Shown here: one piece after another, positions 26,387-51,513 of the stretch
Numbering within the stretch: the first letter of the stretch is position 1
Layout of the letters: each line of letters begins with the position of its first letter
NCBI GenBank assembly: GCA_902554325.1
Contig: CACDOH010000002.1
Coordinates: 72,275-136,274 of the forward strand
Direction: 5' to 3'
Length of the DNA stretch: 64,000 nt
Source of the DNA: an uncultured Pelagibacteraceae bacterium
Lineage (GTDB): Bacteria > Pseudomonadota > Alphaproteobacteria > Pelagibacterales > AG-422-B15
Made by a program: the position numbers and the translations under genes
Notes under the pieces: model-generated
What the model saw: the letters and a program-made list of their open reading frames with translations, nothing else
The model's database searches: none
Told to the model about the DNA's origin: nothing

Positions 26387-26881
26387 TTAAGATTTGTGCT
26401 GGACGTATAGCTGGTGATAGCACACTTTGCCGTTCTTCTCGATAAAGTCCTGATGATATTCCTCTGCAGGGTAGAACTTAACAGCTTCTCTTAATTCTGT
26501 GGCTACCTTTCCTTGATGTTCACCTGAGTCATCAATTTGTTTTATTTTTTCTTCAGCAATAGTTTTTTCATTTTGTGAATTATAAAATATTACAGACTTA
26601 TATTGCTCCCCAATATCCGGACCTTGTCGGTTAAATTGAGTGGGATCATGTATAAAAAAAAATTTATCTAGAAGTGCTTCATATGTAGTTTCTGAGTCAT
26701 CATATTCAATTTCAACAACTTCAATATGACCTGTGGTTCCTGAACAAATAGTCTCATACGTAGGATTATCAGTGTGACCACCTGCATATCCTGATATAAC
26801 TTTTTTGACACCTGGGATTGCTTCAAAGAGCACTTCAACCCCCCAAAAACATCCGGCTCCTAAAACTAATTTTGCATTCAT
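26387..26881 (-). CDS. msrA: peptide-methionine (S)-S-oxide reductase
   Basis: GAGCFWGVE active site, GYAGG, HDPTQ.NRQG.D.G.QY. Confidence 0.9.
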   Translation of the reverse strand: MNAKLVLGAGCFWGVEVLFEAIPGVKKVISGYAGGHTDNPTYETICSGTTGHIEVVEIEYDDSETTYEALLDKFFFIHDPTQFNRQGPDIGEQYKSVIFYNSQNEKTIAEEKIKQIDDSGEHQGKVATELREAVKFYPAEEYHQDFIEKNGKVCYHQLYVQHKS

Positions 26882-26956
26882 TACTTAACATAAAAGTTTT
26901 TTTATATATGTTAAAGATCAAAATTAATAATATTCCAACTAATATTCATACTTGCA

Positions 26957-38149: not shown

Positions 38150-39154
38150 ATGAACAAATCATTATTTTTAAAAACTTTTACTGCCCTTATATTGTCGTCT
38201 TTTCTCGTATTTTCAGCGGGTACAGCGCACGCAAAACGCTTAACTGCTGCTGTTGCTGACTGGACTGGCGGAGAGATTACATGTCAAGTTGCAGTAAGTA
38301 TGTTAGAGCAAGAACTAGGATATCGTGTAGATAGAATAGAATTTGCATCAGGAACTGGTCTTTGGGAAGCAATCGCTGCTGGTGATATTGACTTTGCATG
38401 TGAGAGCTGGCCAAGCTATGCAGAAGCTGACGACGTAATGCTTAATGAGCCGTTATATTACGATGGTGCAGTTGTCCAAGAGTACTCAGGAACTGGTGAA
38501 GTGATGGCATTTACAACTGGTATCATTGGTGCATCAGATTATTATGTACCGAAGTATTTTGTTGATGCCAATCCTGACTTTAATGGTTGGGAAGATCTTA
38601 ATAAGTTCAAAGATCAATTTGCAACAGTTGAAACTGGTTCTAAGGGACGACTTATAGGATGTCCAGTAGCTGGTTGGAACTGTCATGATCAAAAAAGACT
38701 TGATATTATGGGAATTGACTTTGAAGCAGTTGAACTTGGAACAGAGGTTGCGCTTCTAGCAGAGGCACAAGGTTCTTACGATAGACAAGAACCATTCTTA
38801 ATGTACCTTTGGGAGCCACACTTTTTCTTTGGTAAAAATGAAATGGTAGGAATTGGTCTTCCTCCTCACCAAGCTTGTGACTCTTTCACTGAGGCAAACA
38901 ACTGGCAAGATTGTGGTATGGGATCTTGGCCTGCAAGTAACTGGGCTAAAGATTACACTATGAACTACATGAACCCAGCAACAATGCAGAAGCCAGAAAA
39001 TGCTGAAGCACTTGCATTCTTTAAGAAAATGAAGTTTGCGAACGTCGACCAAGCAAAAATGCTTGTTAGAGTAGGCGATGATGGCTTATCTGTTGAAGAA
39101 GCGGTTCAAGAATGGAAAGACAGTACTAACGATTGGCAAGCTTGGCTTCCATAA
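38150..39154 (+). CDS. proX: glycine betaine-type ABC transporter substrate-binding protein (ProX/OpuAC family)
   Basis: Signal peptide ending GTAHA. ADWTGGEITCQVAVSMLEQELGY and an aromatic-rich (Trp) binding region. SD GGGG upstream. Confidence 0.85.
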   Translation: MNKSLFLKTFTALILSSFLVFSAGTAHAKRLTAAVADWTGGEITCQVAVSMLEQELGYRVDRIEFASGTGLWEAIAAGDIDFACESWPSYAEADDVMLNEPLYYDGAVVQEYSGTGEVMAFTTGIIGASDYYVPKYFVDANPDFNGWEDLNKFKDQFATVETGSKGRLIGCPVAGWNCHDQKRLDIMGIDFEAVELGTEVALLAEAQGSYDRQEPFLMYLWEPHFFFGKNEMVGIGLPPHQACDSFTEANNWQDCGMGSWPASNWAKDYTMNYMNPATMQKPENAEALAFFKKMKFANVDQAKMLVRVGDDGLSVEEAVQEWKDSTNDWQAWLP

Positions 39155-39178
39155 GTCTGTACTAATAAAATAAAAATT

Positions 39179-39212
39179 AAGGCCTTGTATAATTATACAA
39201 GGCCTTTTTTTT
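39179..39212 (+). terminator. strong rho-independent terminator after proX
   Basis: Perfect palindrome AAGGCCTTGTATAATTATACAAGGCCTT followed by TTTTTT. Confidence 0.8.
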
Positions 39213-39228
39213 GCTCTATTATATATAA

Positions 39229-40143
39229 GTGAACACTTCTCGCCACCCATATCATTATAGCATTAGCTTTGCATTACTGATTGCAGCTGGATTATGGGGA
39301 TTATTTTGGATACCCCAAAGAGCACTCGAGGCTGGTGGCTTAACTGGCGGCTGGGCCACTATTTCACAAATGATTATTCCCTTTTTAATTCTGCTTCCAG
39401 TTGCTATGTGGAGAAAATATAAAGGTAATTCATTTGGTCTTGATTATCCAATTATAGGACTTTTATTTGGCGCTGGAATTGCATGTTACGCCAATAGCTT
39501 TCTATTAACGGACGTAGTGAGAGCTTTAATCCTATTTTATATTACTCCAGTCTGGACAACTATTTTTGAAATGATATTCCTTAGGCAGGTTCCACGCTAC
39601 TATAGATACATCACTCTTATTCTCGCTTTATCTGGAGTTTGGATTGTCTTTGGTCAGGATGGATTTATTCCAATTCCTCAAAACTCTGGTGACTGGATAG
39701 CACTATTAGGCGGTATATTTATAGCAGCTTCAGCAGTTCGAATGGAAGTTAAAAAACCAGAGGGCATCTTTCCAATTCTTTTTTCATTCTTTTTTTATGG
39801 TGGCATATTTACTTTAGTGCAAGCTTACTTTCTCAGAGATGTAATGGGCTCTGCGCCATCTTTAGATTCTTGGCTTACAATGATGCCATGGCTCTTATTA
39901 ATAGCCATCTTATTTCATCTACCAACTAATGTAGTTATACTAGGAGCACCCAGTAGAATTGGGGCAGGATTATTCTCTATAATCATTCTTTTTGAAATTG
40001 TAGTTGGTACGTTTAGCGCTGCGATATTAACTGATGAACTTTTTGGTTGGCGAGAGATATTAGGAAGCTCATTAATAATCTTGGCAGGATTAACAGAGAT
40101 TATTTTTGCCTCAAATGTAGCTATAAAAAAGAATAACTTATAA
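39229..40143 (+). CDS. DMT (EamA-like) superfamily transporter
   Basis: GTG start; about 10 TM helices; two-repeat EamA-like organisation. Confidence 0.7.
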   Translation: MNTSRHPYHYSISFALLIAAGLWGLFWIPQRALEAGGLTGGWATISQMIIPFLILLPVAMWRKYKGNSFGLDYPIIGLLFGAGIACYANSFLLTDVVRALILFYITPVWTTIFEMIFLRQVPRYYRYITLILALSGVWIVFGQDGFIPIPQNSGDWIALLGGIFIAASAVRMEVKKPEGIFPILFSFFFYGGIFTLVQAYFLRDVMGSAPSLDSWLTMMPWLLLIAILFHLPTNVVILGAPSRIGAGLFSIIILFEIVVGTFSAAILTDELFGWREILGSSLIILAGLTEIIFASNVAIKKNNL

Positions 40144-41061
40144 TTTGTTCAGTAATTTTATGTGCTCAACAGTTGTGCCACAGCAACCTCCGATAATTTG
40201 CGCTCCTGCATCTTTCCATTTTTTGGCTTCGACTAAATAATCATTTGGCTGAATTACATTGCTCATGTCATAGTGTGGAAAATTAAATACAGCTACTTCT
40301 GGATAAGCCATTATAGGAAGATTGTATACTTCCTTGAGTTCTTTTATACTTTCTTCTATTACACTAATATCACAATGCATTATGCCAACCGCATCCAATT
40401 TATGGTGTTTAACGTTGCTGATCATTTTTTTAAAACTATACTCATAGTCAGTCGTAAGAGCTATCAAGCCATCTTTGTTTCTAGAAGAAAACCCAGCCCA
40501 TACTGGTAAACCAACTTTGCTTGCTGAATCAAAAATTATATCAATTCGATCTGGCCTATACATAAGCTCCAATAAAATAAAATCACATCCGTTATCCGCT
40601 AAAAAAAATGCCAGCTCATCAAAAGATTTTTGAAAATATTCTGGGGTAAGTTTCTTAATATATTTATCTTTTTCTTCTTGCGATCTAAAAGCATCTTCAT
40701 ACGGTATTTGGTGAGATAAGGATCCTGCCACAAGTACATCATCTCGACCACATTCTTCTCTTGCTTGGATAGCTGCATTTATTGCAGATAGATTAATTTC
40801 TTTAAATTTATCTTCAACTCCAGCCACTTCTAATATCATTCGATTTGAAGCATAGGTATTTGTTGTAATTATTTTTGCTCCAGCATTGATGTAGTCTTTA
40901 TGGATTTGTTTTAGAATATCAAACTCAAGTGAGGCTGTTGCGCACCAAGAGTTATCCATTTTAATACCTCTGTTTTCAAGTTCGGATCCAGTGGCTCCAT
41001 CAAGCAATATAGTTTCCCCTGAACGGAGAACTTCTAAAAATTTTTTATACCTTTGATTCAT
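40138..41061 (-). CDS. homocysteine S-methyltransferase family protein (BHMT/MmuM-like)
   Basis: LLDGATGSELE N-terminal block, TNTYASN, and the C-terminal zinc-site motif GGCCGTTVEHI. Confidence 0.8.
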   Translation of the reverse strand: MNQRYKKFLEVLRSGETILLDGATGSELENRGIKMDNSWCATASLEFDILKQIHKDYINAGAKIITTNTYASNRMILEVAGVEDKFKEINLSAINAAIQAREECGRDDVLVAGSLSHQIPYEDAFRSQEEKDKYIKKLTPEYFQKSFDELAFFLADNGCDFILLELMYRPDRIDIIFDSASKVGLPVWAGFSSRNKDGLIALTTDYEYSFKKMISNVKHHKLDAVGIMHCDISVIEESIKELKEVYNLPIMAYPEVAVFNFPHYDMSNVIQPNDYLVEAKKWKDAGAQIIGGCCGTTVEHIKLLNKL

Positions 41062-41169
41062 AACTTGTTAATTATCATTTAAAGCTTAATTAAGTAAATA
41101 TATTATTGAAAATGATTTACTTTATCTCATTTTTTAGTTTATAAGATCGGATCAATTTGGAGATTGCTT

Positions 41170-42306
41170 ATGTCAAAAGGGATTATTTATACACCCAGAG
41201 TTAGAAAGTCACCCTTCTTTGAGGAAACTATAAAATCTGGAGCAACTAATTTCACTACTTATAATCATATGACGATGCCTGTGGGATACACTACACCTGA
41301 GCAGGAATATCATTCATTAATTAATGATGTGACGTTATGGGATGTTGCAGCGGAAAGACAAGTTGAGGTTGTTGGGGAAGATGCAGCTAAATTTGTCCAA
41401 TATATGACGCCGAGAAACTTATCTACATTTAAAGATGGTTTTTGTAGATACGCATTTATGACAGATGAAAATGGTGGAATTATCAATGATCCATTAATAT
41501 TAAAATTCAATGATAACAAATTTTGGTTAAGTATTGCTGATTCCGACGCAATCCTTTGGTGTAAAGGCGTCGCTCTATCTGGAAAATTTAATGTTAAAAT
41601 TTCAGAACCTGAGGCATGTCCTTTATCTTTGCAAGGGCCAAGATCAAAAGAGCTTATTAGAAAAGTAACAAATGATGATCCGATTATAATGGGACTAAAA
41701 TACTACCAATTTATCGAGACTAATCTTTTTGGAATAGATATTATTATTGCTAGAAGTGGCTGGAGCAATCAGTTTGGTTATGAAATATACATCACTCGAG
41801 AAATTGATGCCCCAACACTTTGGAACTCTTTAATGGATGCTGGTAAAGAATTTAGGATTGTTCCTAGTTGCCCAAATCAAATAGATAGAATTGAAGCAGG
41901 CATGATTTCACATCAAGGTGACACATCCCTAGAGGAAAACCCTTTAGAGCTCAATCTCCCCAAGTTTTATGATCTTGATCAGGAGGCTGATTTTGTAGGT
42001 AAAGAAGCCCTTCTCAAAATAAGAGAGGAAGGTATTAAGAAACAATTCACTGGATTTAAAATTTCAGGAAAAAAAATTGGTTATAATATGGCTAGAATTC
42101 CTCTGTTTAATAAAAATGGGGAACAGCAAGGATTTGTAACTAGTACAATCTATAGCCCTAATTTTGGATGCAATATTGCCCTCGGATACATTGATATTAA
42201 TCTAACCAACTCTGAAGATGTATTTAATATTAATCATGATGGCGAAGAAAGAGAAGTTGAGGTTGTTCCATTACCATTTAGTTCAAGACTAGAAAAAATG
42301 GAATAA
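41170..42306 (+). CDS. DmdA-like GcvT-fold THF-dependent demethylase candidate
   Basis: PRVRKSPFFE, TTYNHMTMP, LWDVAAERQVEVVGEDA, GGIINDPLILKFNDNKFWLSIADSD, ARSGWSNQFGYEIY and CPNQIDRIEAGMISHQGD parallel my recollection of DmdA blocks. ATG 41170 has GGAG 7 nt upstream; the ORF-track TTG 41164 does not. Confidence 0.8.
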   Translation: MSKGIIYTPRVRKSPFFEETIKSGATNFTTYNHMTMPVGYTTPEQEYHSLINDVTLWDVAAERQVEVVGEDAAKFVQYMTPRNLSTFKDGFCRYAFMTDENGGIINDPLILKFNDNKFWLSIADSDAILWCKGVALSGKFNVKISEPEACPLSLQGPRSKELIRKVTNDDPIIMGLKYYQFIETNLFGIDIIIARSGWSNQFGYEIYITREIDAPTLWNSLMDAGKEFRIVPSCPNQIDRIEAGMISHQGDTSLEENPLELNLPKFYDLDQEADFVGKEALLKIREEGIKKQFTGFKISGKKIGYNMARIPLFNKNGEQQGFVTSTIYSPNFGCNIALGYIDINLTNSEDVFNINHDGEEREVEVVPLPFSSRLEKME

Positions 42307-42953
42307 TGCTTTCAAAGAATATAATTAATAAATTTTTATTTATATCGATTATATTACTTGCAATTATCGCAGGCTGGGCAGTTTCAGAATTATTTAATAA
42401 AGATAGCACGTCTCCCTCTAACAATATACTTTTGAATTTTGAAGCAGTTGACCATATGGGAAATAATGTATCTACATCGAGTTACGATGGCTTCAGTAAA
42501 GTATTTTTTTTTGGTTTCACGCACTGTCCAGATATTTGTCCTATAAGCGCAAACTTGATGAGCAATGCCATTGAGCAATTAAATAGAGAAAACTTTTCAA
42601 CTGAGAAAATAAAATTTTTTTTTGTCACTGTTGATCCAGCAAGAGATAGTCCAGAAAGATTAAAAGAATTTTTGATCAACTTTGGCGATGATTTCATTGG
42701 ACTAACAGGAAGTCATGAGTCACTAATGCCAATCTGGAAAGATTTTTTTGTACATGTAGAGCCAGCGACAACTTCAGAGCATCAAAATCACTTAAGTGCC
42801 TCCAAACAAACTGAAGCTGGAGAAGACAATTCTAACTATATGGTGCAGCATACTGCTTTCTATTATATTTTCGATGATACAAACACACTTCAAAGCATTT
42901 TACCTTTCGGATCAAGTATTGATAAAATGGTTGAAGATATTAAGAAACTGTAA
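42306..42953 (+). CDS. SCO1/SenC family copper chaperone / thiol-disulfide oxidoreductase
   Basis: N-terminal TM helix, CxxxC in FFGFTHCPDICP, distal His in MVQHTAFYYIFD. The ATG overlaps the upstream TAA by 1 nt. Confidence 0.85.
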   Translation: MLSKNIINKFLFISIILLAIIAGWAVSELFNKDSTSPSNNILLNFEAVDHMGNNVSTSSYDGFSKVFFFGFTHCPDICPISANLMSNAIEQLNRENFSTEKIKFFFVTVDPARDSPERLKEFLINFGDDFIGLTGSHESLMPIWKDFFVHVEPATTSEHQNHLSASKQTEAGEDNSNYMVQHTAFYYIFDDTNTLQSILPFGSSIDKMVEDIKKL

Positions 42954-42955
42954 AA

Positions 42956-43201
42956 ATGAAAAAAATAATATTCATATTATTTCCTATAATCATTTTGTCT
43001 TGTTCTGAAAGCAATAAACAAATGTATGAAAGTTTGGCTATTGAAAAAGCTAATGAGAAAAACTGTAACTCAAATGTTGAATTACTTTTAACCTATGAAA
43101 AAACAGAACTATGGTCATCTTATCATAATAAAGATCAAAAACTTTTATGTGTTTTCACTTGTGTAAATGAAGTATGTATGTTCTCAACTGAAAGAGATTA
43201 G
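42956..43201 (+). CDS. small Cys-rich lipoprotein (81 aa), no recognised family
   Basis: Lipobox IILSC after a hydrophobic signal. Four more Cys in the mature part (C37, C65, C69, C74). 2-nt gaps to both neighbouring genes. Confidence 0.5.
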   Translation: MKKIIFILFPIIILSCSESNKQMYESLAIEKANEKNCNSNVELLLTYEKTELWSSYHNKDQKLLCVFTCVNEVCMFSTERD

Positions 43202-43202
43202 T

Positions 43203-43661
43203 ATGGCTAGAAAATTCTTAGTCATGATAATATTTTTAAGTCTATTAAAAGTTTCACATGCACATCAGTTTCAGGAAAAGCATATAAATATTAATCATCC
43301 TCATATTAAATTTACAATCTCATCTGGGTCAGCGGCAGGATATATGAAAATTGTTAATATGGGGTATGAAATTGATCGCTTGGTGGGTGTAGAAGTAAAT
43401 TTTGCAGACGCAGAATTGTATTCCACTGAAGTAAAAGACGGAATGACAAAAATGATAAAAGTTGATTATATCGATTTACCCGCACAAAAAGCTAAATCGC
43501 TTATACCTGGAAACCATCATATTATGTTCTCAAACCTTAAAATTGAACTCATAGAGGGAATGTCTTTAGAGGGAACATTGACATTTGAAACAGCGGGACA
43601 AATCATTGTATTATTTGAAGTTGAGAAACAAAATAATAATAAGGATTATACCGAGCATTGA
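43203..43661 (+). CDS. periplasmic copper chaperone PCu(A)C (DUF461)
   Basis: Signal peptide ...KVSHA. AAGYMKIVNMG, DRLVGVEV, MTKMIKV and PGNHHIMFSNL follow the PCuAC H/M copper-site pattern. ATG 43203 preferred over 43167. Confidence 0.8.
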   Translation: MARKFLVMIIFLSLLKVSHAHQFQEKHININHPHIKFTISSGSAAGYMKIVNMGYEIDRLVGVEVNFADAELYSTEVKDGMTKMIKVDYIDLPAQKAKSLIPGNHHIMFSNLKIELIEGMSLEGTLTFETAGQIIVLFEVEKQNNNKDYTEH

Positions 43662-44548
43662 ATATGAAAACATTAAGATTTGAATATACCGTAACACTTA
43701 TTTCACTTTCATCTTTGGTGGTGATTGCTTGGTATTACTTATTTTTGATGTCTGCTCAGCCCTCAATGGACATGACAATGCAAAATGAAAATTCAATGAA
43801 TATGTCAATGGAAACAATGTCTGATAATGAAATAGAAATGGGAAATATAACAGAAGACTCCATGAAAACTAATTCTATGGAAATGAATCAGACAAAATCA
43901 ACAATTAATTTCTTGATGATGCCGATGACTGGTCAATGGACGGTTAGTGAATTTATTGTGATGTTTGTAATGTGGACAATAATGATGTTTGCTATGATGT
44001 TGCCTTCCACTTTTATATTTCTCAATGTCTTTAGACTTATGCGATCAAATATGCAAATAACTTCAAGTCCTTTATTAGAAATGATAATTATTTCATCTGC
44101 ATATTTTTTAATCTGGATATTCTTTTCACTTTTAGCCTGTACACTTCAATATATACTGCACAACAGTGGAGTCGTAGACATGATGGGCGCTATTCAAAAC
44201 AAAATTCTAGCCGGATTAGTCTTAATAGGAGCAGGAGCCTTTCAATTTACAAGCTTGAAAGATACTTGTCTTGAAAAGTGCAGAAATCCTCTTTCGTTTA
44301 TAATGTCGGGACCAATAAAAGGATATGCGAATGTCGCATATGTTGGTTTGCAGCATGGAGTTTTTTGCCTCGGATGTTGCTGGGTATTGATGTTATTATT
44401 GTTTGTGAACGGCGTTATGAATTTACTGTGGGTTGCTGTATTAACAATCGTTGTTTTAATTGAAAAAATGCTCCCATATGAGAAACTTAGCTCTAGATTT
44501 CTAGGCTTTCTTCTAGTAGGTTGGGGAGCGTACTTAATATTTATTTAA
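43658..44548 (+). CDS. DUF2182 family integral membrane protein (predicted metal-binding) with a Met-rich N-terminal insert
   Basis: Multi-TM core (WTIMMFAMMLPS, ...GVFCLGCCWVLMLLLF) matches the DUF2182 pattern. Start is TTG 43658 (overlaps the PCuAC stop) or ATG 43664. Confidence 0.65.
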   Translation: MNMKTLRFEYTVTLISLSSLVVIAWYYLFLMSAQPSMDMTMQNENSMNMSMETMSDNEIEMGNITEDSMKTNSMEMNQTKSTINFLMMPMTGQWTVSEFIVMFVMWTIMMFAMMLPSTFIFLNVFRLMRSNMQITSSPLLEMIIISSAYFLIWIFFSLLACTLQYILHNSGVVDMMGAIQNKILAGLVLIGAGAFQFTSLKDTCLEKCRNPLSFIMSGPIKGYANVAYVGLQHGVFCLGCCWVLMLLLFVNGVMNLLWVAVLTIVVLIEKMLPYEKLSSRFLGFLLVGWGAYLIFI

Positions 44549-44552
44549 TTCT

Positions 44553-45233
44553 ATGACTGTAAATCCATTAAACTTACACTGGGAAATAAAAGGAAATTTT
44601 TTACTTAATTGCAATTGTGATGTTTTTTGCAATTGTCCTATGTCTCTTGGAAAGGCTGTACCTAACTCACCTAACGGCAAATGTTTTTCATGGTGGGGTA
44701 TTAACATCGAGGAAGGCTATGCTGAAGAAAAGTGGTCTGGGTTTAACCCCATAAAGAGAGAGGTCAAAGGTATAATGGATTTAAGTGGATTGAATGTTGC
44801 TATACTTTTAGAGGTTCCAGGACCTCTGGGTTCAGGGGGTTGGACTGCTGGTCTATACATTGATGAAAAAGCTTCTGATGATGCAGCAGATGCTTTGGCA
44901 GTAATATTTTCAGGCCAAGCTGGCGGGCAGACAGGCTGGTTTAGACATATGATAGCAAATTTTCTTGGAGTTAAAAGATGTTCTATTTCATATAAAGAAA
45001 CTGATGAAGGATGGTCATTTACGATACCTGAAATACTTGATGGGCGCATTGAGCATGAAGCGGGCAAAGAACGTGGTGAGGTTGTGAAAGTTTCAAATTT
45101 AAAGTATTGGGTTGCGCCAGAGATAATAGTCTGTAAAGGGTCAAAAAGAAGTCGGATTAGAGATCACGGTCGTAATTGGGATTTCACTGGGGGAAGCGCT
45201 GAATACTGCGCTGTTGACTGGGCAGGCCCTTAA
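44553..45233 (+). CDS. DUF1326 family protein
   Basis: Cys cluster NCNCDVFCNCP near the N-terminus; IFSGQAGGQTGWF block. DUF1326 is the usual genomic partner of DUF2182. Confidence 0.65.
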   Translation: MTVNPLNLHWEIKGNFLLNCNCDVFCNCPMSLGKAVPNSPNGKCFSWWGINIEEGYAEEKWSGFNPIKREVKGIMDLSGLNVAILLEVPGPLGSGGWTAGLYIDEKASDDAADALAVIFSGQAGGQTGWFRHMIANFLGVKRCSISYKETDEGWSFTIPEILDGRIEHEAGKERGEVVKVSNLKYWVAPEIIVCKGSKRSRIRDHGRNWDFTGGSAEYCAVDWAGP

Positions 45234-45236
45234 TCC

Positions 45237-47672
45237 ATGAAGAATAAAGCTAAAGTTGTCGTCATAGGTGGCGGTGTAGTTGGAGTAAGTACGTTATACC
45301 ATCTTGCAAAAAAAGGATGGTCAGATGTCGTTTTATGTGAACGTAAAGAGCTAACTTCAGGTTCAACCTGGCATGCGGCTGGTCTCATGCCTTTATTTAA
45401 TATGAGTTATTCGGTTGGACAAATTCATAAATACTCTGTCAAATTTTATCAAGAGCTTGAAAAAGAAACAGGACAAGATGTTGGTTTTAGGGAGGTTAGC
45501 AATATACGACTGGCTGAGAACCAAGATCGGATGGATGAATATAGGCAATATGCTGGTGTTGCTGAAACTATTGGAGTTAAGGTAAATTTTCTTACACCTG
45601 AAGAAATTCAAAAAGCTTGGCCGCTATGTTCTATTGATGGACTTGTTGGAGCAATACAACATCCTGAAGATGGTTACATTCAACCAAATGATTTAACACA
45701 AGCACTTGCAAAAGGAGCGAGAGCACTTGGAGCAGAAATTTATAGACAAACAACAGTAACGGGCCTAGAGCAATTGCCTGATGACAGTTGGATTGTGACA
45801 ACTGATAAAGGTGAGATTAAGTGTGATGTTGTAGTTTCTTGTTCAGGTAATTTTGTAAGACAAACAGGTGAGATGGTTGGTTTAGACATACCTGTAATCC
45901 CTGTAGAGCATCAGTACATTGTAACAGAAGCGCACCCAAAAATTTTAGAGAGACAAAAAGAAGGCCTTCCTGAAATGGGGGTGTTAAGAGGCTCAGATGG
46001 CGCATGGTATATGCGAGAAGAAGCAGGAGGTCTTATCTTGGGTCCATATGAAAAAGGAGCGCCAGCTTGTTATGTAGATGGTCCCAGCAAAGATTGTGAA
46101 TATGAATTATTTCAAGAGGATCTTGATCGACTAGGCCCACATATTGAGCATGCAATAAATCGAGTCCCAATTTTTGGTGAGGCTGGAATTAAAAAAGTTT
46201 ACAATGGAGCAATTTGTTATACGCCAGATGGAAGTCCTATTATAGGCCCTGCATGGGATAGAAAAAATCTTTATCTGAATGATGGCCATTCATTCGGTGT
46301 TACAGCAGCAGGAGGTGCCGGATGGCAAATAGCAGAATGGATCGTAGACGGCGAACCTACAATTGACATGCTTGGTGTTGAGCCAAGAAGGTTTGGCGAT
46401 TATGCCTCGAAAGCTTATTTAATTAAAAAAAATGAAGAGGCTTACGCTAATGTATTTACTATTCATTATCCTGATGAAGAGAGACCTGCTGGAAGACCAT
46501 TAAGACAAGCGCCATGTTACGATCGATTAAAAAATCTTGGGGCTGTATTTGGACAGAAATTTGGCTGGGAAAGAGCCAATTGGTTTGCACCAGAAGGAGT
46601 TCCTCAAGAGGATGATTGGTCATTTAGGCGCTCTACGTGGTTTGAACACATTGGCAATGAATGTAAGAATGTTTCGGAAAACGTAGGATTGCTTGACATG
46701 AGTGCCTTTGCAAAATGTAGAGTTAGTGGACCAGGTGCCGAAGAGTTTCTTGATAATCTAGTCGCTAATAAACTTCCTAAAAAAATTGGCAGAACAAATT
46801 TATGTCATGCACTAAATACAAAAGGTGGAGTTCATTCAGAATTTACAATAATGAGAGAATCTACAGACAGTTTTTACTGTGTTTCAGCAGGTGCATGGCA
46901 AAGATTAGATCATGATTGGATCAAAAAGCATATGCCAGAAGATAGAAGTGTTAAATTTGAAAATATCACCAATCAAATGGGGGTATTGGTTATTGCAGGC
47001 CCTAAGTCTAGGGAGTTGCTAGAGTGTGTTTCCTCTGATGATTTCAGCAATGAAGCTTTTCCGTGGTTATCGGGTAAAAATATTAAAATTGGCAGTGCTG
47101 AAACATTGGCAATCAGAGTTAACTTTGTGGGTGAACTTGGATGGGAAATACATTCGCCTATTGAAGTTCAAAATCATATTTTTGACGCCTTAATGGATGC
47201 AGGAAAAGACCTGGGATTGAAACCTTTTGGAATTAGAGCCATGGACTCATTAAGATTAGAAAAATCTTATAAGCTAATTGGAACAGAGCTATCAATTGAG
47301 TATGCTGGATACGAGTCAGGCATTGATCGATTTATTCACCCAAATAAAGGCCAATTCATTGGAAGAGATGCGCTTGTTCAATGGAGGGAAAAAGGTTTTG
47401 AAAATTCTTTTGTCACATTAGAAGTACATGGAGTTTCTGATGCTGATGTTTTAGGCAACAATCCTATCTACAGTAATGGAAAAGTTGTAGGTAGAGCGAC
47501 AGGTGGCAATTATGGATTTAGAGTAAACAAATCACTTGCCCTAGCAATGGTCAATCCGGCTCAGTCAGAAGTTGGTACAAAATTACAAATTGATATACTA
47601 GGCAATATGCATGATGTAACAGTTATACCAGAGAGTCCGTATGACCCCAAAAATGAAAAAATAAGAGCATAA
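45237..47672 (+). CDS. dimethylglycine dehydrogenase family flavoprotein (FAD oxidase domain plus GcvT-fold domain)
   Basis: VVVIGGGVVGVSTLYHL; covalent-FAD His context SGSTWHAAGL; C-terminal aminomethyltransferase fold (LLDMSAFAKCRVSGPGAEEF). 811 aa. Confidence 0.9.
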   Translation: MKNKAKVVVIGGGVVGVSTLYHLAKKGWSDVVLCERKELTSGSTWHAAGLMPLFNMSYSVGQIHKYSVKFYQELEKETGQDVGFREVSNIRLAENQDRMDEYRQYAGVAETIGVKVNFLTPEEIQKAWPLCSIDGLVGAIQHPEDGYIQPNDLTQALAKGARALGAEIYRQTTVTGLEQLPDDSWIVTTDKGEIKCDVVVSCSGNFVRQTGEMVGLDIPVIPVEHQYIVTEAHPKILERQKEGLPEMGVLRGSDGAWYMREEAGGLILGPYEKGAPACYVDGPSKDCEYELFQEDLDRLGPHIEHAINRVPIFGEAGIKKVYNGAICYTPDGSPIIGPAWDRKNLYLNDGHSFGVTAAGGAGWQIAEWIVDGEPTIDMLGVEPRRFGDYASKAYLIKKNEEAYANVFTIHYPDEERPAGRPLRQAPCYDRLKNLGAVFGQKFGWERANWFAPEGVPQEDDWSFRRSTWFEHIGNECKNVSENVGLLDMSAFAKCRVSGPGAEEFLDNLVANKLPKKIGRTNLCHALNTKGGVHSEFTIMRESTDSFYCVSAGAWQRLDHDWIKKHMPEDRSVKFENITNQMGVLVIAGPKSRELLECVSSDDFSNEAFPWLSGKNIKIGSAETLAIRVNFVGELGWEIHSPIEVQNHIFDALMDAGKDLGLKPFGIRAMDSLRLEKSYKLIGTELSIEYAGYESGIDRFIHPNKGQFIGRDALVQWREKGFENSFVTLEVHGVSDADVLGNNPIYSNGKVVGRATGGNYGFRVNKSLALAMVNPAQSEVGTKLQIDILGNMHDVTVIPESPYDPKNEKIRA

Positions 47673-47683
47673 ATAAATATTTT

Positions 47684-48736
47684 GTGTCTAGTGCAATCAA
47701 ACTTTACAAGAAAATTTGTTCGGAAGAGCAAGTAAAATATAATCCTAAACAAGAACTCTTAATTTTCCAGCTTGATGAGTTCCTAAGTCACAAGAAAAAG
47801 AATTTTATTTTTAAGATATTCGAAACATCGAATAGCAGAAAAAAGAAATGCTTTTATATTCATGGAGGTGTCGGAGTTGGCAAGACTCTTATTATGGATT
47901 TATTTAATGGTATTGTAAAAAATAAACAAAGAATTCATTTTCATAAATTTATGATTGAAATTCATGATGAATTGCATTCTTTAAGAAGCCAAAATAAGTC
48001 AAAAGAGTTTTTAATAGTCCAGCTTGCAAAAAAAATTAAAGAAAAATATAGATTCATTTTTTTTGATGAATTCCAAGTAACCAATATTGCTGACGCCATG
48101 ATACTTGGACATTTATTTAATGAATTATTTAAAAACAATGTTTACATAATACTAACATCAAATAACAAGCCTGAAGATTTATATAAAGATGGTTTACAAA
48201 GAGAGTTGTTTCTTCCTTTCATAGAAATAGTAAAAGAGAATTCAATTATTCATCATTTAGATATAGAAACAGATTACAGAACAGAAAATTTAAATAGTCG
48301 AGAGACCTTTTTTATTTCTAATTCATCAGTCAGTAGTCTTAAAATAAAAGATATATATGAAAAAATTATAGAAGGTCACATACCAAAGGATGAAACTATA
48401 TCTATAAAAAAAAGAGACTTTGTCATAAGAAAACTAGCGAATCGCGTTGCTTGGTTTCAGTTTGAGCAACTTTGTGGAGGTCATATTGGTGCCGAGGACT
48501 ACCTTGAGATGATTAAGTATACAGATCAAATTATCATTGAGAATGTGCCAATTTTTAATAATGCAAACGCAAATATGCAAGAGAGGTTTATTAACCTGAT
48601 TGATGTACTTTATGATAATAAGATTCAAATCATTATTAGTTCTGTTAAAGAAATTGAAAAGATAGGAAGCGCGTTCTACCTTAAAGATAAGTTTCAAAGA
48701 ACGGTAAGTAGATTAATTGAAATGAGATCTAACTAG
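47684..48736 (+). CDS. zapE: ZapE / AFG1-like ATPase
   Basis: GTG start; Walker A GGVGVGKT; Walker B FFDEFQV; LTSNNKPEDLY. Confidence 0.8.
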   Translation: MSSAIKLYKKICSEEQVKYNPKQELLIFQLDEFLSHKKKNFIFKIFETSNSRKKKCFYIHGGVGVGKTLIMDLFNGIVKNKQRIHFHKFMIEIHDELHSLRSQNKSKEFLIVQLAKKIKEKYRFIFFDEFQVTNIADAMILGHLFNELFKNNVYIILTSNNKPEDLYKDGLQRELFLPFIEIVKENSIIHHLDIETDYRTENLNSRETFFISNSSVSSLKIKDIYEKIIEGHIPKDETISIKKRDFVIRKLANRVAWFQFEQLCGGHIGAEDYLEMIKYTDQIIIENVPIFNNANANMQERFINLIDVLYDNKIQIIISSVKEIEKIGSAFYLKDKFQRTVSRLIEMRSN

Positions 48737-48750
48737 AAATAAATTTTTAT

Positions 48751-49980
48751 ATGAAGATAGCAGTTATAGGCGCAGGAATTGTAGGCATTTCTTCTGCTAA
48801 TTGGTTACAGAAATACGGACAAGATGTTACATTATTTGACATGAATGACCCTGGCAGCCAAGCAAGCTTTGGGAATGCAGGGACCTATGCGAGGTATGCA
48901 AATATTCCTACTAACTCCTCATCATTTTTTTATCTTTTTCCATACCTTCTTTTAAATAAAAACAGTCCTCTTTTTATAAGATTTAAAAGACTTAACAAGA
49001 CTTTGCCTTGGATCCTAAATTACTTATACAACTGTAGAAATAGTAATGTAAATACGACAACAAATAATTTAACAAAGCTTCTTTCTAAAATGGATGATGG
49101 ATATGAAGAATTGTTTAAAGAGGCAGGCGTTGAACCCTATTTGTCAAGAAAAGCTATTATGTACGGATGGTCAACAAAATTATTTTTTAATTCAGCAAAA
49201 AAAGATTTTAGCAAACGTGAACAAACTGGAATTAAGATACAAGTACTTAGTCATGATGAGATCTCAGATTTAGAGCCAAATATAAATAATATATTTTATA
49301 AAGGCGCATTGTTTGAGGGAAGTTATTTTGCTAAAAATCCAAAGAAAGTGAGTCAGTTATTAATTAATTTATTTTTAAATAAGGGGGGAATTTTCAAAAA
49401 AGCAAAAGTAACAAATATTGAAAATCTTGAAAAAAGTAAATTACAAATAACTACAGGCAGTACAAGTGAAGTATTTGATAGGGTTATTATTGCCTCTGGG
49501 GTATGGTCAAAAAGTTTGGTAGAAGCAACGGGTGACAAAGTGCCACTGGAAGCTGAGCGCGGCTACCACATTGTTAACCCTGAACTTAAGGATATTATTT
49601 CACGTCCTATTTCTTGGCAAGAAAGAGGAACGTATTTTACACCTATGGAAGATGGACTCAGAACTGGAGGAATAGTCGAATTTGGCGATACAGATTATGA
49701 AGAAAATCCTAAGGTTATTAATTTTCTAGAAAGGGCGCTTAAATCAATATTCCCTCAGTCTAATCGTCCTACGCAATCCTGGGTTGGCTTTAGACCTTCT
49801 GTTCCAGATTCGCTTCCAGTTATTGGACAATCTTCAAAAAACCCTTATATTTATTATTGTTTTGGTCATCAGCACATTGGATGGTCATTAGGAGGTATAT
49901 CAGGAAAACTGATTGCCCAAAAAATTTGTGCAAATAAAACTGATATTGATTTGGCGCCTTACTCGTTGGAGAGACTTTAA
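48751..49980 (+). CDS. FAD-dependent oxidoreductase (DadA/DAO-like amino acid dehydrogenase)
   Basis: KIAVIGAGIVGISSA, GRCYHI-like ERGYHIV, GFRPSVPDSLPVIG, GHQHIGWSLG. Confidence 0.8.
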   Translation: MKIAVIGAGIVGISSANWLQKYGQDVTLFDMNDPGSQASFGNAGTYARYANIPTNSSSFFYLFPYLLLNKNSPLFIRFKRLNKTLPWILNYLYNCRNSNVNTTTNNLTKLLSKMDDGYEELFKEAGVEPYLSRKAIMYGWSTKLFFNSAKKDFSKREQTGIKIQVLSHDEISDLEPNINNIFYKGALFEGSYFAKNPKKVSQLLINLFLNKGGIFKKAKVTNIENLEKSKLQITTGSTSEVFDRVIIASGVWSKSLVEATGDKVPLEAERGYHIVNPELKDIISRPISWQERGTYFTPMEDGLRTGGIVEFGDTDYEENPKVINFLERALKSIFPQSNRPTQSWVGFRPSVPDSLPVIGQSSKNPYIYYCFGHQHIGWSLGGISGKLIAQKICANKTDIDLAPYSLERL

Positions 49981-49982
49981 AT

Positions 49983-51224: not shown

Positions 51225-51228
51225 TTGT

Positions 51229-51513
51229 ATGTTTGTTATTAAATGTCCATACTGTGGCGAGAGAGATCAAACTGAATTTGCATGTCATGGCGAAGCGCAT
51301 ATAGCTAGACCAGATAATCCTGCAGAAGTAAGTGATGAGGAATGGGGAGAGTACCTTTTTTTTAGGAATAATCCAAAAGGAATACATTTCGAAAGGTGGA
51401 CACATGATCATGGTTGTAGACGATGGTTCAATGTTATGAGAGATACAGTTAGCGATAAAATAATAAGGACATACAAGATGGGTGATCAAAAACCAGGAGT
51501 TCAAGATGTCTAA
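51229..51513 (+). CDS. soxD: sarcosine oxidase subunit delta
   Basis: MFVIKCPYCGERDQTEFACHGEAHIARP zinc-ribbon N-terminus; 94 aa. Confidence 0.9.
   Translation: MFVIKCPYCGERDQTEFACHGEAHIARPDNPAEVSDEEWGEYLFFRNNPKGIHFERWTHDHGCRRWFNVMRDTVSDKIIRTYKMGDQKPGVQDV

What the first reader, a model, noticed from the sequence alone, without database searches (positions are those of the whole stretch)
42306..45233. Five-gene copper-handling module translationally coupled into a methylamine-oxidation gene array
What the sequence shows:
- Five tightly packed genes: SCO1/SenC (CxxxC), an 81-aa Cys-rich lipoprotein, PCu(A)C, DUF2182 (integral membrane) and DUF1326 (soluble, with a CxCx3CxC cluster, NCNCDVFCNCP, at 44610-44636).
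- Gaps between them are 2 to 4 nt, or they overlap.
- The SCO1 ATG overlaps the TAA of the upstream DmdA-like gene (TAATG at 42304-42308).
- Dimethylglycine dehydrogenase starts 4 nt after the DUF1326 stop.

Established knowledge: SCO1 and PCuAC deliver Cu(I) to the CuA and CuB sites of cytochrome oxidases. The DUF2182/DUF1326 pair has no experimentally defined function, as far as I know.

Inference: DUF2182/DUF1326 may be the membrane and cytoplasmic arm of a Cu relay whose periplasmic arm is SCO1, the lipoprotein and PCuAC. Placement in a betaine/sarcosine catabolic transcription unit is unexpected and suggests co-regulation of Cu supply with C1 oxidation.
Basis: partly seen in the sequence, partly recalled or inferred. 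Interest (0 to 1): 0.7.

Follow-up and report, generated by a model that had tools for sequence, protein, structure and literature searches.

The report
SAR11 DmdEF-like copper-handling gene module
In a SAR11 ocean bacterium, three copper-chaperone-type genes sit directly beside a membrane/soluble protein pair (DUF2182/DUF1326, named DmdE/DmdF in 2026) that other marine bacteria need to break down DMSP and that was reported missing from SAR11; this points to copper as a testable clue to what the pair does.

Summary
Five same-strand genes at 42306-45233 encode SCO1, an 81-aa lipoprotein, PCuAC, DUF2182 and DUF1326, wedged between a DmdA-like aminomethyltransferase and dimethylglycine dehydrogenase. 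The window is Pelagibacteraceae (SAR11).

- Pfam now names DUF2182 "PpoB2, copper chaperone".
- Fu et al. 2026 named the DUF2182/DUF1326 pair DmdE/DmdF. It is co-transcribed with dmdA in Roseobacters and required for growth on DMSP.
- That paper states SAR11 lacks both genes. Here at least 44 species-level Pelagibacteraceae genomes carry DUF1326.

Survey results:
- The pair is adjacent in 32 of 36 non-SAR11 loci, next to betaine/DMSP genes.
- SCO1 and PCuAC occur in 0 of those 36 loci, but SCO1 is in 53 of 55 SAR11 loci.
- SAR11 shows three layouts: five genes (28 loci), no PCuAC (6), and SCO1-DUF1326 only (14).
- SAR11 DUF2182 has gained a 35-55-residue Met-rich periplasmic loop.
- Five cysteines are invariant across the whole DUF1326 family.

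Best reading (about 0.45): a SAR11 variant of DmdEF extended into a periplasm-to-cytoplasm copper relay. Main rival: SCO1 and PCuAC are housekeeping cytochrome oxidase factors that only happen to lie here. Tight gene packing is the genome norm and proves little. I rate this a new variant of a known kind.

The parts
40138..41061 (-). Homocysteine S-methyltransferase family gene (BHMT-like), divergent from the unit; context only
   Evidence: Pfam S-methyl_trans, 171 bits. The same family is the second commonest neighbour of DUF2182/DUF1326 pairs in other phyla.
41170..42306 (+). DmdA-like aminomethyltransferase with unverified substrate. Its stop overlaps the SCO1 start (TAATG).
   Evidence: Pfam GCV_T + GCV_T_C. 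Best NCBIfam model is DMSP demethylase at 351 bits, below its 410 cut-off. 39% identical to P. ubique DmdA (3TFH) and 36% to Marinovum DmdA. ATG 41170 follows a GGAG. 80%-identical orthologues in other SAR11 contigs are not followed by the module.
42306..42953 (+). SCO1/SenC, membrane-anchored and facing the periplasm. CxxxC at 42525-42539; ligand His182 at 42849-42851.
   Evidence: Pfam, 118 bits. N-terminal hydrophobic anchor. FFGFT.CPD.CP and Y.V.H are invariant in 43 distinct SAR11 copies. Identity falls from 41-99% (the 41-44% group is ~25 clusters of 226-233 aa; only one, P0163/L094, was looked up, and it lies in this locus) to 38% or less for generic SCO proteins.
42956..43201 (+). 81-aa lipoprotein found only in SAR11. 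Lipid Cys16 at 43001-43003; invariant Cys37 and C65xxxC69xxxxC74 (43148-43177).
   Evidence: No Pfam or NCBIfam match. Lipobox and four invariant Cys in 27 distinct copies. Only 8 representative clusters among 1.84 billion proteins. Present in the five-gene and four-gene layouts and absent from the two-gene layout.
43203..43661 (+). PCuAC-family periplasmic protein. Signal peptide predicted to be cleaved A20|H21, leaving an N-terminal His (43263-43265). ININHPH at 43284-43304. Partial canonical site Y73..M84..H106-I-M108 (43419-43526). C-terminal TEH.
   Evidence: Pfam, 75.8 bits. PDB matches include canonical PCuAC and the PmoF1/PmoF2 chains, which align from their first residues to H21. AH.Q..ININHPH is invariant in 33 copies; the first canonical His is H, Y or F.
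43658..44548 (+). DUF2182/PpoB2-family (DmdE-like) polytopic membrane protein; start is TTG 43658 or ATG 43664. Met-rich periplasmic loop at 43757-43933. Invariant MWxxMxxAMMxP at 43970-44005, C204xxxC208 at 44267-44281, H233..C237xxC240C241 at 44354-44380.
   Evidence: Pfam, 188 bits. 32% identical to Marinovum DmdE. Invariant residues across 65 sequences; the Met-rich loop (12-24 Met) occurs only in SAR11 copies. The positive-inside rule places the Cys/His cluster on a K/R-rich cytoplasmic loop.
44553..45233 (+). DUF1326 (DmdF-like) soluble protein with no signal peptide. CxCx3CxC at 44610-44636 plus Cys44 at 44682-44684.
   Evidence: Pfam, 125.7 bits. 42% identical over 96% of its length to Roseobacter DmdF homologues. 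Five Cys invariant across SAR11, marine MAGs, Roseobacters, Streptomyces, Polaromonas, Cupriavidus and Bacillus. AlphaFold model pLDDT 84; the Cys loop is low-confidence. Weak resemblance to the acetoacetate-decarboxylase-like fold.
45237..47672 (+). Dimethylglycine dehydrogenase-like flavoenzyme (DAO + FAO_M + GCV_T). It is the constant downstream neighbour of the module in SAR11.
   Evidence: Pfam. It follows DUF1326 in every SAR11 locus with enough downstream sequence. A 39%-identical homologue lies beside dmdEF on Marinovum pMaD9.
47684..48736 (+). AFG1-like ATPase, which always follows DMGDH in these loci; context only
   Evidence: Pfam AFG1_ATPase, 281.6 bits; synteny.

Best explanation
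This is the SAR11 (Pelagibacteraceae) version of the DUF2182/DUF1326 pair known from Roseobacters as DmdE/DmdF. It is embedded in the betaine/DMSP methyl-oxidation operon directly upstream of dimethylglycine dehydrogenase. On its 5' side it is extended by three periplasm-facing copper-chaperone-type proteins.

Proposed mechanism:
1. Membrane-anchored SCO1 (CxxxC...H), the Cys-rich lipoprotein and PCuAC (N-terminal His plus M/HxM) capture scarce periplasmic copper.
2. They hand it to the Met-rich periplasmic loop that SAR11 DUF2182 has acquired.
3. The metal passes along the invariant Met-lined helix (MWxxMxxAMMxP) to the invariant CxxxC/H/CxxCC cluster on the cytoplasmic face.
4. It is delivered to the invariant five-Cys site of the soluble DUF1326. 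DUF1326 is then the client, just as tyrosinase is the client of PpoB2.
5. Metallated DUF1326 supports or protects the folate- and flavin-dependent demethylases. The reported activity is H2O2 consumption.

Shown here: gene content, motifs, inferred topology, co-occurrence patterns, and homology to DmdE/DmdF and PpoB2.
Inferred: that the metal is copper, that the direction is inward, that DUF1326 is the acceptor, and what it does once loaded.
For: Family identity:
- Pfam assigns all four domain families well above cut-off, and PF09948 is now curated as 'PpoB2, copper chaperone'.
- PpoB2 is reported to transfer copper specifically to its operon partner tyrosinase (PMC2855505).
- DmdE/DmdF are adjacent, co-transcribed with dmdA and required for growth on DMSP (PMC12992908).
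- The SAR11 proteins are 42% (DUF1326) and 32% (DUF2182) identical to the Roseobacter plasmid copies that sit in dmdR-dmdE-dmdF-(dmdB)-dmdA-acuI clusters.

Co-occurrence within SAR11:
- The SCO1 model hits 53 of 55 loci that carry DUF1326.
- All four contexts reached from the SCO1 side carry DUF1326.
- The SCO1 copies at >=50% identity, plus the one 41% copy looked up (L094), all lie in this locus; identity then drops to 38% or less for generic SCO proteins.
- The copper-type genes are interleaved with the pair, in the order SCO1-lipoprotein-PCuAC-DUF2182-DUF1326.

Motifs and topology:
- SAR11 DUF2182 has a 35-55-residue MxM/MDM-rich loop with 12-24 Met. Homologues in other phyla have 0-3 Met, or short Met- or His-rich motifs, at the same place.
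- By the positive-inside rule that loop is periplasmic and the invariant Cys/His cluster is cytoplasmic.
- The SCO1 ligands are invariant. PCuAC keeps M and HxM plus an invariant N-terminal His that aligns with the first residues of the PmoF1/2 structures.
- The five Cys of DUF1326 are invariant from SAR11 to Bacillus. By my recollection, CxC...CxC motifs are typical of Cu(I)-thiolate sites such as CopY and Ace1.

Transcription signals: no promoter- or terminator-like signal above chance lies inside the unit.
Against: - Outside SAR11 the pair is never next to SCO1 or PCuAC: 0 of 36 loci within +/-10 kb, and none on two Roseobacter plasmids or four other annotated plasmids. The link rests on one lineage whose loci are not independent.
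- 14 SAR11 loci keep SCO1-DUF1326 but lack DUF2182, PCuAC and the lipoprotein. A membrane conduit is therefore dispensable, or is supplied from elsewhere.
- Tight packing and overlapping stops are the norm in this genome and do not show functional coupling.
- No cytoplasmic copper enzyme is known in this pathway.
- DUF1326 resembles no known copper chaperone and has only a weak ADC-like fold match (TM 0.4).
- Fu et al. report a peroxidase-type activity without mentioning copper.
- Metal specificity was not tested. Five Cys could equally bind Zn or an Fe-S cluster.
Confidence: 0.45

Rival explanations
1. There are two unrelated functions side by side. SCO1, PCuAC and perhaps the lipoprotein are the cell's ordinary CuA/CuB assembly factors for aa3 cytochrome oxidase. 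They have merely come to lie in this operon in a streamlined genome. DUF2182/DUF1326 act separately as the DmdEF-type system, giving oxidative-stress protection during demethylation with a non-copper cofactor or none.
For: - SCO1 and PCuAC are absent from all 36 non-SAR11 DUF1326 loci and from the Roseobacter dmdEF clusters.
- 96% coding density and a 2-nt median gap make adjacency cheap.
- The two-gene layout keeps SCO1 while losing PCuAC and DUF2182, as expected if SCO1 is essential for respiration.
- No second SCO1 appeared in the 64-kb window, and no recognisably AT-rich SAR11-like SCO was among the 16 more distant hits whose sequences were read (of ~63 listed at <=38% identity).
- Purified DmdF consumes H2O2, and copper is not invoked.
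Against: - The SCO1 clade was seen only in DUF1326-bearing loci in this sample, and cluster sizes are similar for the two proteins. If it were the universal SAR11 housekeeping SCO1, orthologues from the abundant cultured-type SAR11 lacking DUF1326 should dominate the hits, and none was seen.
- DUF2182 acquired a Met-rich periplasmic loop only in the lineage where it sits beside periplasmic copper chaperones.
- DUF2182 belongs to a family with a reported copper-transfer role.
Confidence: 0.25
2. An outward copper-supply line. Cytoplasmic DUF1326 buffers Cu(I) on its Cys site. DUF2182 moves it to the periplasm. PCuAC, SCO1 and the lipoprotein insert it into a periplasmic copper enzyme tied to methylated-sulfur or C1 metabolism. 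That enzyme could be the Cu-dependent methanethiol oxidase MtoX/SBP56, or the terminal oxidase that receives electrons from methyl-group oxidation.
For: - mtoX is commonly co-located with SCO1/senC (PMC5739008).
- On Marinovum algicola pMaD9 the dmdE-dmdF-dmdB-dmdA-acuI cluster is followed directly by an SBP56 gene (561 bits).
- The Roseobacter dmdE mutant is partly rescued by deleting dmdA. This fits a toxic demethylation product such as methanethiol accumulating when a downstream copper enzyme is inactive; that link is my inference.
Against: - No SBP56 was found in the window or in any fetched SAR11 locus.
- The Met (periplasm) to Cys (cytoplasm) ligand gradient in DUF2182 suits inward rather than outward Cu(I) flow (inference).
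- The two-gene SAR11 layout has no exporter.
Confidence: 0.15
3. A thiol-disulfide (reducing-equivalent) relay rather than a metal relay. Cys-rich cytoplasmic DUF1326 passes electrons through the membrane Cys pairs of DUF2182, in the manner of DsbD/CcdA, to the thioredoxin-fold SCO1 and the four-Cys lipoprotein in the periplasm.
For: - Every component except PCuAC carries invariant Cys pairs: SCO1 CxxxC; lipoprotein C37 and C65/C69/C74; DUF2182 CxxxC and CxxCC; DUF1326 five Cys.
- SCO proteins have a thioredoxin fold. PF00578 AhpC-TSA co-hits appear on generic SCO homologues.
- A redox role would fit the reported oxidative-stress phenotype.
Against: - The conserved Met-lined helix and the Met/His-rich loops of DUF2182 are metal ligands, not redox relays.
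- PpoB2 is reported to act in copper transfer.
- PCuAC has no Cys.
- The DUF2182 Cys cluster lies on one (cytoplasmic) face rather than spanning the membrane.
Confidence: 0.1

Closest known systems
DmdE/DmdF of Roseobacters (Fu et al. 2026, EMBO J, PMC12992908)
   Same: An adjacent DUF2182 membrane protein and DUF1326 soluble protein, on one strand with a DmdA-type aminomethyltransferase and methyl-osmolyte catabolic genes. DUF1326 is 42% identical over 96% of its length and DUF2182 is 32% identical to Roseobacter plasmid copies. Both values exceed that paper's own thresholds of at least 30% identity and 70% coverage.
   Different: - No DmdR/GntR regulator, no acuI and no dinB-type neighbour.
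- The pair lies downstream, not upstream, of the DmdA-like gene and directly before DMGDH.
- It is preceded by SCO1, a lipoprotein and PCuAC.
- DUF2182 carries a Met-rich loop.
- Some SAR11 genomes keep DUF1326 without DUF2182, whereas the paper found the two 'always adjacent'.
- The paper states that SAR11 lacks both genes.
PpoB1/PpoB2 of Marinomonas mediterranea (tyrosinase and its membrane copper chaperone; PF09948/COG5486)
   Same: The same Pfam family for the membrane protein (188 bits). In both cases it is encoded next to a soluble protein that could be its client.
   Different: The neighbour is DUF1326, not a tyrosinase. No type-3 copper protein is in the window.
ScoI/PcuC (SCO1/PCuAC) CuA assembly line of cytochrome oxidase (for example Bradyrhizobium, PMC6669012)
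   Same: A membrane-anchored SCO1 with CxxxC...H, and a periplasmic PCuAC-family protein encoded close by.
   Different: - No cox genes are adjacent.
- PCuAC has lost the first canonical His in the window copy. It has a PmoF-like N-terminal His.
- The genes are interleaved with DUF2182/DUF1326 and a lineage-specific lipoprotein.
mtoX-SCO1/senC-mauG clusters (Cu-dependent methanethiol oxidase; Eyice et al. 2018, PMC5739008)
   Same: A SCO1-type chaperone encoded with genes of the DMSP/methanethiol pathway rather than with cox genes. On Marinovum pMaD9 an SBP56 gene follows the dmdEF-dmdA cluster.
   Different: No SBP56 or MauG was found in the window or in related SAR11 loci.

Membership tests
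SCO1/SenC (PF02630) | Profile match above the curated cut-off | tested here: met
   118.4 bits against a 22.8 cut-off.
SCO1/SenC (PF02630) | CxxxC plus a distal His as copper ligands, on a membrane-anchored periplasmic thioredoxin fold | tested here: met
   C74PDIC78 and His182 (YMVQH) are invariant in 43 distinct SAR11 copies. N-terminal hydrophobic anchor at residues ~1-31.
SCO1/SenC (PF02630) | Delivers copper to CuA of cytochrome oxidase | not testable with these tools
   No cox genes are adjacent. Whether this is the only SCO1 in the genome could not be checked.
PCuAC (PF04314) | Profile match above the curated cut-off, and a signal peptide | tested here: met
   75.8 bits against a 29.4 cut-off. 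N-terminal MARKFLVMIIFLSLLKVSHA|H.
PCuAC (PF04314) | Canonical Cu(I) site H(M)X10MX21HXM (motif recalled from the literature) | tested here: not met
   The window copy has Y73 in place of the first His, and relatives have H, Y or F there. M84 and H106-I-M108 are kept. An invariant N-terminal His and ININHPH align with the PmoF1/PmoF2 chains 6P16/6P1G from their first residues.
PpoB2 / DUF2182 (PF09948) | Profile match above the curated cut-off; polytopic membrane protein with conserved Cys/His/Met | tested here: met
   188.1 bits against a 28.7 cut-off. Invariant MWxxMxxAMMxP, CxxxC, H and CxxCC in 65 sequences. Hydrophobic segments and loop charges.
PpoB2 / DUF2182 (PF09948) | Encoded with, and needed for copper loading of, a tyrosinase | tested here: not met
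   No tyrosinase in the window. The neighbour is DUF1326. Copper transfer itself is not testable here.
DUF1326 (PF07040) | Profile match above the curated cut-off; N-terminal CxCx3CxC plus a fifth Cys | tested here: met
   125.7 bits against a 25 cut-off. C20, C22, C26, C28 and C44 are invariant in 73 close relatives and in Streptomyces, Polaromonas, Cupriavidus and Bacillus members.
DmdE/DmdF system (Fu et al. 2026) | Adjacent DUF2182 and DUF1326 genes with at least 30% identity and 70% coverage to reference proteins | tested here: inconclusive
   The genes are adjacent with a 4-nt gap. DUF1326 is 42% identical over 96% and DUF2182 is 32% identical over about 75% of its length, but to Marinovum/Antarctobacter homologues.
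DmdE/DmdF system (Fu et al. 2026) | Operonic with dmdA and/or acuI and next to the GntR-type repressor DmdR | tested here: not met
   The upstream gene is DmdA-like only: 351 bits against a 410 cut-off, and 39% identity to ratified P. ubique DmdA. No DmdR or AcuI homologue is in the window, nor in SAR11 loci L001-L055.
DmdE/DmdF system (Fu et al. 2026) | Required for growth on DMSP; DmdF consumes H2O2 | not testable with these tools
   These are genetic and biochemical properties reported only for R. lacuscaerulensis.
Bacterial lipoprotein (the 81-aa ORF) | Signal peptide ending in a lipobox Cys | tested here: met
   MKKIIFILFPIIILS-C16-SE. The CSE motif is invariant in 27 copies. There is no family match in Pfam or NCBIfam, and only 8 representative clusters exist worldwide.

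The most novel reading that the evidence does not exclude
DmdE/DmdF is a previously unrecognised copper import and insertion system. DUF2182 takes Cu(I) from the periplasm and loads a five-Cys site on DUF1326, which would be a new kind of Cys-ligated copper protein whose H2O2-consuming activity is copper-dependent. In SAR11 this line is fed by dedicated periplasmic chaperones. If so, methyl-group oxidation of DMSP and glycine betaine by some of the ocean's most abundant bacteria depends on copper supply. Copper availability could then influence the demethylation/cleavage balance that sets DMS release.
Probability: 0.25. Interest if true: 0.85.

Novelty: new variant of a known kind. Interest (0 to 1): 0.6.

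Why it matters
- **Published claim.** DmdE/DmdF were described in 2026 as essential for the main marine DMSP degradation route. DmdE has no known function and DmdF only a tentative peroxidase role. They were reported absent from SAR11, which was used to argue that SAR11 must use different protection.
- **What this window shows.** Many SAR11 genomes do carry the pair, or DUF1326 alone. In SAR11 it is physically joined to copper chaperones and has a Met-rich loop. The same membrane family has a documented copper-transfer member.
- **What follows.** This gives a concrete, cheap-to-test hypothesis (copper) for the mechanism of DmdE/DmdF. It also revises their estimated distribution in the ocean.
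- **If the rival is right.** If the copper link turns out to be coincidental adjacency, the finding reduces to a distribution correction.

Tried and rejected
- **NCBIfam:** no model for any of the five proteins.
- **PDB sequence search with a DUF1326 profile:** only chance kinase hits with E about 0.4.
- **Foldseek of the DUF1326 model against PDB:** only a weak acetoacetate-decarboxylase-like match (TM 0.4, rmsd 12-14 Å). There was no chaperone, peroxidase or catalase fold, so I drew no functional inference from it.
- **Rfam on the whole window:** no match, so there is no known riboswitch ahead of the unit.
- **Promoter/terminator scan of 39000-52000:** counts at chance level. The only strong terminator is at 39179-39206, outside the unit.
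- **Composition:** DUF1326 and DMGDH are about 0.41 GC against 0.29-0.34 for the four upstream genes. There is no clear sign of recent transfer.
- **Searches for methanethiol oxidase (SBP56), AcuI and DmdR homologues** in the window and in all loci held at the time of each search (L001-L093): none outside the Roseobacter plasmids.
- **First neighbour selection by longest ORF** in GC-rich loci was unreliable. I replaced it with GC3-guided selection.
- **Literature terms** DUF1326, DUF2182, COG5486, COG5588, PF09948 and PF07040 returned only two relevant papers. A Pelagibacter + SenC/SCO1/PCuAC search gave nothing on this locus.
- **Is the upstream AMT the orthologue of SAR11_1303 or of dmdA?** I could not settle this.
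- **Is this SCO1 the only one in the genome?** I could not test this, because only loci of 20 kb or less and the window itself are readable.

Full report
**1. What is there**

The + strand of 41170-48736 carries an uninterrupted run of genes:
- a GcvT-family aminomethyltransferase (AMT)
- SCO1/SenC (42306-42953)
- an 81-aa ORF (42956-43201)
- a PCuAC-family protein (43203-43661)
- a PF09948 membrane protein (43658/43664-44548)
- a DUF1326 protein (44553-45233)
- a dimethylglycine-dehydrogenase-type flavoenzyme (45237-47672)
- an AFG1-like ATPase

Pfam places four of the five proteins far above the curated cut-offs. NCBIfam has no model for any of them.

Two caveats apply. The longer PCuAC ORF from 43167 is not supported by conservation. 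The AMT probably starts at ATG 41170, after a GGAG.

The tight packing carries little weight. In this window 29 of 41 same-strand junctions are 5 nt or less or overlap, the median gap is 2 nt, and about 96% of the sequence is coding.

**2. Whose genome**

The DUF1326 protein is 100% identical to one in Pelagibacteraceae single-cell genome AG-337-G06 (QBZX01000002.1). The best 44 loci of a scan of one genome per GTDB species are all Pelagibacteraceae or Pelagibacterales. The window is therefore SAR11, with GC 0.35.

**3. What the literature already says**

Pfam now calls PF09948 (formerly DUF2182) 'PpoB2, copper chaperone'. PpoB2 of Marinomonas mediterranea is encoded with a tyrosinase and is reported to transfer copper specifically to it. 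It was the first COG5486 protein with an assigned role (PMC2855505).

The only paper in the library that mentions DUF1326 or DUF2182 is Fu et al. 2026 (PMC12992908). Its main points are:
- In Roseobacters the DUF2182/DUF1326 pair, named DmdE/DmdF, lies in the DmdR-controlled operon with dmdA-acuI.
- dmdE and dmdF mutants of Ruegeria lacuscaerulensis cannot grow on DMSP, and deleting dmdA partly rescues the dmdE mutant.
- DmdE is not a DMSP transporter and its function is unknown.
- Purified DmdF consumes H2O2.
- The paper never mentions copper.
- It states twice that SAR11 lacks dmdE and dmdF.

Its surprise at finding the pair among betaine/DMSP genes is misplaced.

**4. Direct comparison with Roseobacter clusters**

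A tblastn search of plasmids found two Roseobacter records:
- Marinovum algicola pMaD9 carries GntR, DUF2182, DUF1326, acyl-CoA ligase, DmdA, alcohol dehydrogenase (AcuI-type), then SBP56. An 811-aa DMGDH-like gene lies divergently upstream.
- Antarctobacter heliothermus pSMS3-2 carries GntR, DUF2182, DUF1326, DmdA and an MDR oxidoreductase.

The window proteins are 42% (DUF1326, 96% coverage) and 32% (DUF2182) identical to these. That is above the thresholds of at least 30% identity and 70% coverage that Fu et al. applied. The SAR11 genes were probably missed because of the genome set and taxonomic labels used. That explanation is my inference.

**5. Neighbourhood survey**

I called ORFs in 91 fetched loci and searched them with the window proteins and with profiles built here.

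Within SAR11, SCO1 is found in 53 of 55 DUF1326 loci. Among the 48 loci with enough upstream sequence there are three layouts:

| Layout | Loci |
|---|---|
| SCO1-lipoprotein-PCuAC-DUF2182-DUF1326 | 28 |
| SCO1-lipoprotein-DUF2182-DUF1326 | 6 |
| SCO1-DUF1326 only | 14 |

The two-gene layout includes metagenome-abundant forms; one such protein is indexed in 592 blocks of the collection.

Coming from the SCO1 side, all four contexts examined carry DUF1326. One of them has DUF2182 and DUF1326 truncated by a deletion. SCO1 identity falls from 41-99% to 38% or less for generic SCO proteins; the copies whose contexts were examined (99%, 61%, 50% and 41%) all lie in this locus.

The constant neighbour is DMGDH-AFG1 downstream. 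The upstream gene varies: it is the 378-aa AMT in most loci and a 447-aa GCV_T protein in others. 80%-identical AMT orthologues in other SAR11 contigs are not followed by the module at all.

Outside SAR11, I examined 36 loci from Entotheonella, Myxococcota, Acidobacteriota, Chloroflexota and others:
- DUF2182 lies beside DUF1326 in 32.
- SCO1, PCuAC and the lipoprotein are found in none within +/-10 kb.
- A Pfam census of 109 flanking proteins shows zinc-ADH/MDR (6), homocysteine S-methyltransferase (5), BCCT transporters (3), GCV_T (2) and haem-dependent N-demethylase (2).
- DmdA-like or DMGDH-like genes lie within 10 kb in seven loci.
- In Streptomyces, Polaromonas, Cupriavidus and Bacillus plasmids the pair stands alone.

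I draw two conclusions. The link between the pair and methylated-osmolyte catabolism is general for this marine clade. The link to copper chaperones is specific to SAR11.

**6. Evidence inside the proteins**

- **SCO1.** It has an N-terminal anchor, C74xxxC78 and His182, all invariant.
- **The 81-aa protein.** It has a lipobox and four further invariant Cys (C37, C65, C69, C74). Only eight representative clusters exist among 1.84 billion proteins, so it is a SAR11 orphan.
- **PCuAC.** It has a signal peptide predicted to be cleaved before an invariant His, followed by an invariant ININHPH. PDB matches include the PmoF1/PmoF2 structures, which align from their first residues to that His. Of the canonical Cu(I) site (recalled as H(M)X10MX21HXM), the first His is Tyr in the window and H, Y or F in relatives. 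The Met and HxM are kept.
- **DUF2182.** MWxxMxxAMMxP, C204xxxC208, H233 and C237xxC240C241 are invariant across 65 sequences from all phyla. SAR11 copies alone carry a 35-55-residue loop of MxM/MDM repeats with 12-24 Met, where other members have 0-3 Met or a short His- or Met-rich motif. Family-averaged hydropathy and K/R counts place that loop in the periplasm and the Cys/His cluster on a K/R-rich cytoplasmic loop.
- **DUF1326.** It has no signal peptide. C20, C22, C26, C28 and C44 are invariant even in Bacillus and Streptomyces members. An AlphaFold model is confident overall (pLDDT 84, pTM 0.86) but not in the Cys loop. Its only PDB resemblance is a weak match to acetoacetate-decarboxylase-like beta-cone proteins (TM 0.4). 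There is no sequence relative in the PDB. It therefore looks like neither a known copper chaperone nor a known peroxidase.

**7. Mechanism**

The reading I favour (about 0.45) has these elements:
- The pair is the SAR11 form of DmdE/DmdF.
- DUF2182 works like PpoB2, moving Cu(I) from a periplasmic Met site through a Met-lined helix to cytoplasmic thiolates.
- DUF1326 is the acceptor and client.
- SAR11, living at very low copper, has added SCO1, a lipoprotein and PCuAC as periplasmic feeders.

Only the anatomy, motifs, topology and co-occurrence are shown. The identity of the metal, the direction of transfer and the acceptor are inferred.

The main rival (0.25) is that SCO1 and PCuAC are the ordinary cytochrome oxidase assembly factors, parked in this operon by genome streamlining. 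It is supported by their absence next to the pair everywhere else, by the two-gene layout, and by the fact that I saw no second SCO1.

A third reading (0.15) reverses the direction, with copper supplied outward to a periplasmic enzyme such as methanethiol oxidase. SCO1 is known beside mtoX (PMC5739008), and SBP56 follows the dmdEF-dmdA cluster in Marinovum. However, no SBP56 is in the window or in the related SAR11 loci.

A thiol-disulfide relay (0.1) fits the many Cys pairs but not the Met-rich features.

**8. Regulation**

No Rfam family matches anywhere in the window. Promoter- and terminator-like matches in 39000-52000 are at chance level, and none stands out inside the module. No DmdR-like regulator is present. 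The unit probably starts in the 41062-41169 spacer, divergent from the BHMT-like gene. This was not tested.

**9. Verdict**

What is new relative to the literature:
- SAR11 does carry DmdF-like genes, and usually DmdE-like genes too.
- In SAR11 they are joined to copper-chaperone genes and have gained a Met-rich loop.
- DUF1326 can persist with SCO1 but without DUF2182.

This is a new variant of a known kind. Its value lies in giving the poorly understood DmdE/DmdF system a specific, testable copper hypothesis, and in correcting its reported distribution.

Noticed in passing
L001-L011, L047, L052-L054 (e.g. L001:7295-8648): Many SAR11 contigs, including very abundant metagenome forms, keep only SCO1 followed after about 58 nt by DUF1326. 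They lack the lipoprotein, PCuAC and DUF2182. Fu et al. described the DUF2182/DUF1326 genes as 'always adjacent'.
   Followed up: partly
L094:7001-9218: In one SAR11 metagenome contig, DUF2182 is cut after about residue 189 and DUF1326 begins at about residue 53, so it loses the Cys motif. A gap of about 200 nt lies between them. This is either a deletion intermediate on the way to the reduced layout or an assembly artefact.
   Followed up: partly
L037-L040, L046, L048 (SCO1 genes, e.g. L040:8167-8868): In the six loci that lack PCuAC, the loop of SCO1 before the ligand His is longer (median 41 against 27 residues) and richer in His (median 4.5 against 1; for example HEDHDSHDSHGDHG). The DUF2182 loop there is almost pure MDM repeats. 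The loci are probably one clade, so this is not independent evidence.
   Followed up: partly
L092 (Marinovum algicola pMaD9, CP010864.1 70219-84812): The Roseobacter dmdR-dmdE-dmdF-dmdB-dmdA-acuI cluster is followed directly by an SBP56 (methanethiol oxidase family) gene and a 218-aa membrane protein with no Pfam match. An 811-aa DMGDH-like gene lies divergently upstream. The 2015 annotation already called the pair 'protein involved in DMSP breakdown'.
   Followed up: partly
window 47684-48736, and the same position in all SAR11 loci: An AFG1-like ATPase always follows DMGDH. By my recollection, mitochondrial Afg1 is linked to turnover of cytochrome oxidase subunits, which is curious beside SCO1 and PCuAC. 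I did not examine this.
   Followed up: no
window 20761-26342: A DmdB-like acyl-CoA ligase (48% identical to Marinovum DmdB), formate-tetrahydrofolate ligase, an MTHFR-like gene and a 447-aa DmdA-related GCV_T protein form a second block of DMSP/C1 genes. The last two correspond to the SAR11_1264/1265 arrangement of Sun et al. 2011. In some SAR11 contigs (L095, L096) this block directly precedes the SCO1 module.
   Followed up: partly
L100 (Cupriavidus necator H16 pHG1, 110971-112670): The DUF1326-DUF2182 pair is followed by a small 'GDCCVxC domain-containing (seleno)protein'. This is another Cys-rich partner in a distant member of the system.
   Followed up: no
window 44553-47672 versus 42306-44548: DUF1326 and DMGDH have about 0.41 GC, while the four genes upstream have 0.29-0.34. 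The 116-aa antisense ORF at 44717-45067 inside DUF1326 is probably a by-product of this composition.
   Followed up: no
L102-L105 (e.g. L102:4833-10404): In other SAR11 contigs the 80%-identical AMT lies between the BHMT-like gene and a PMSR / MR_MLE / malonyl-CoA-synthase block. In this window that block sits 13 kb upstream (26387-29604). The island has therefore been rearranged between SAR11 lineages.
   Followed up: no
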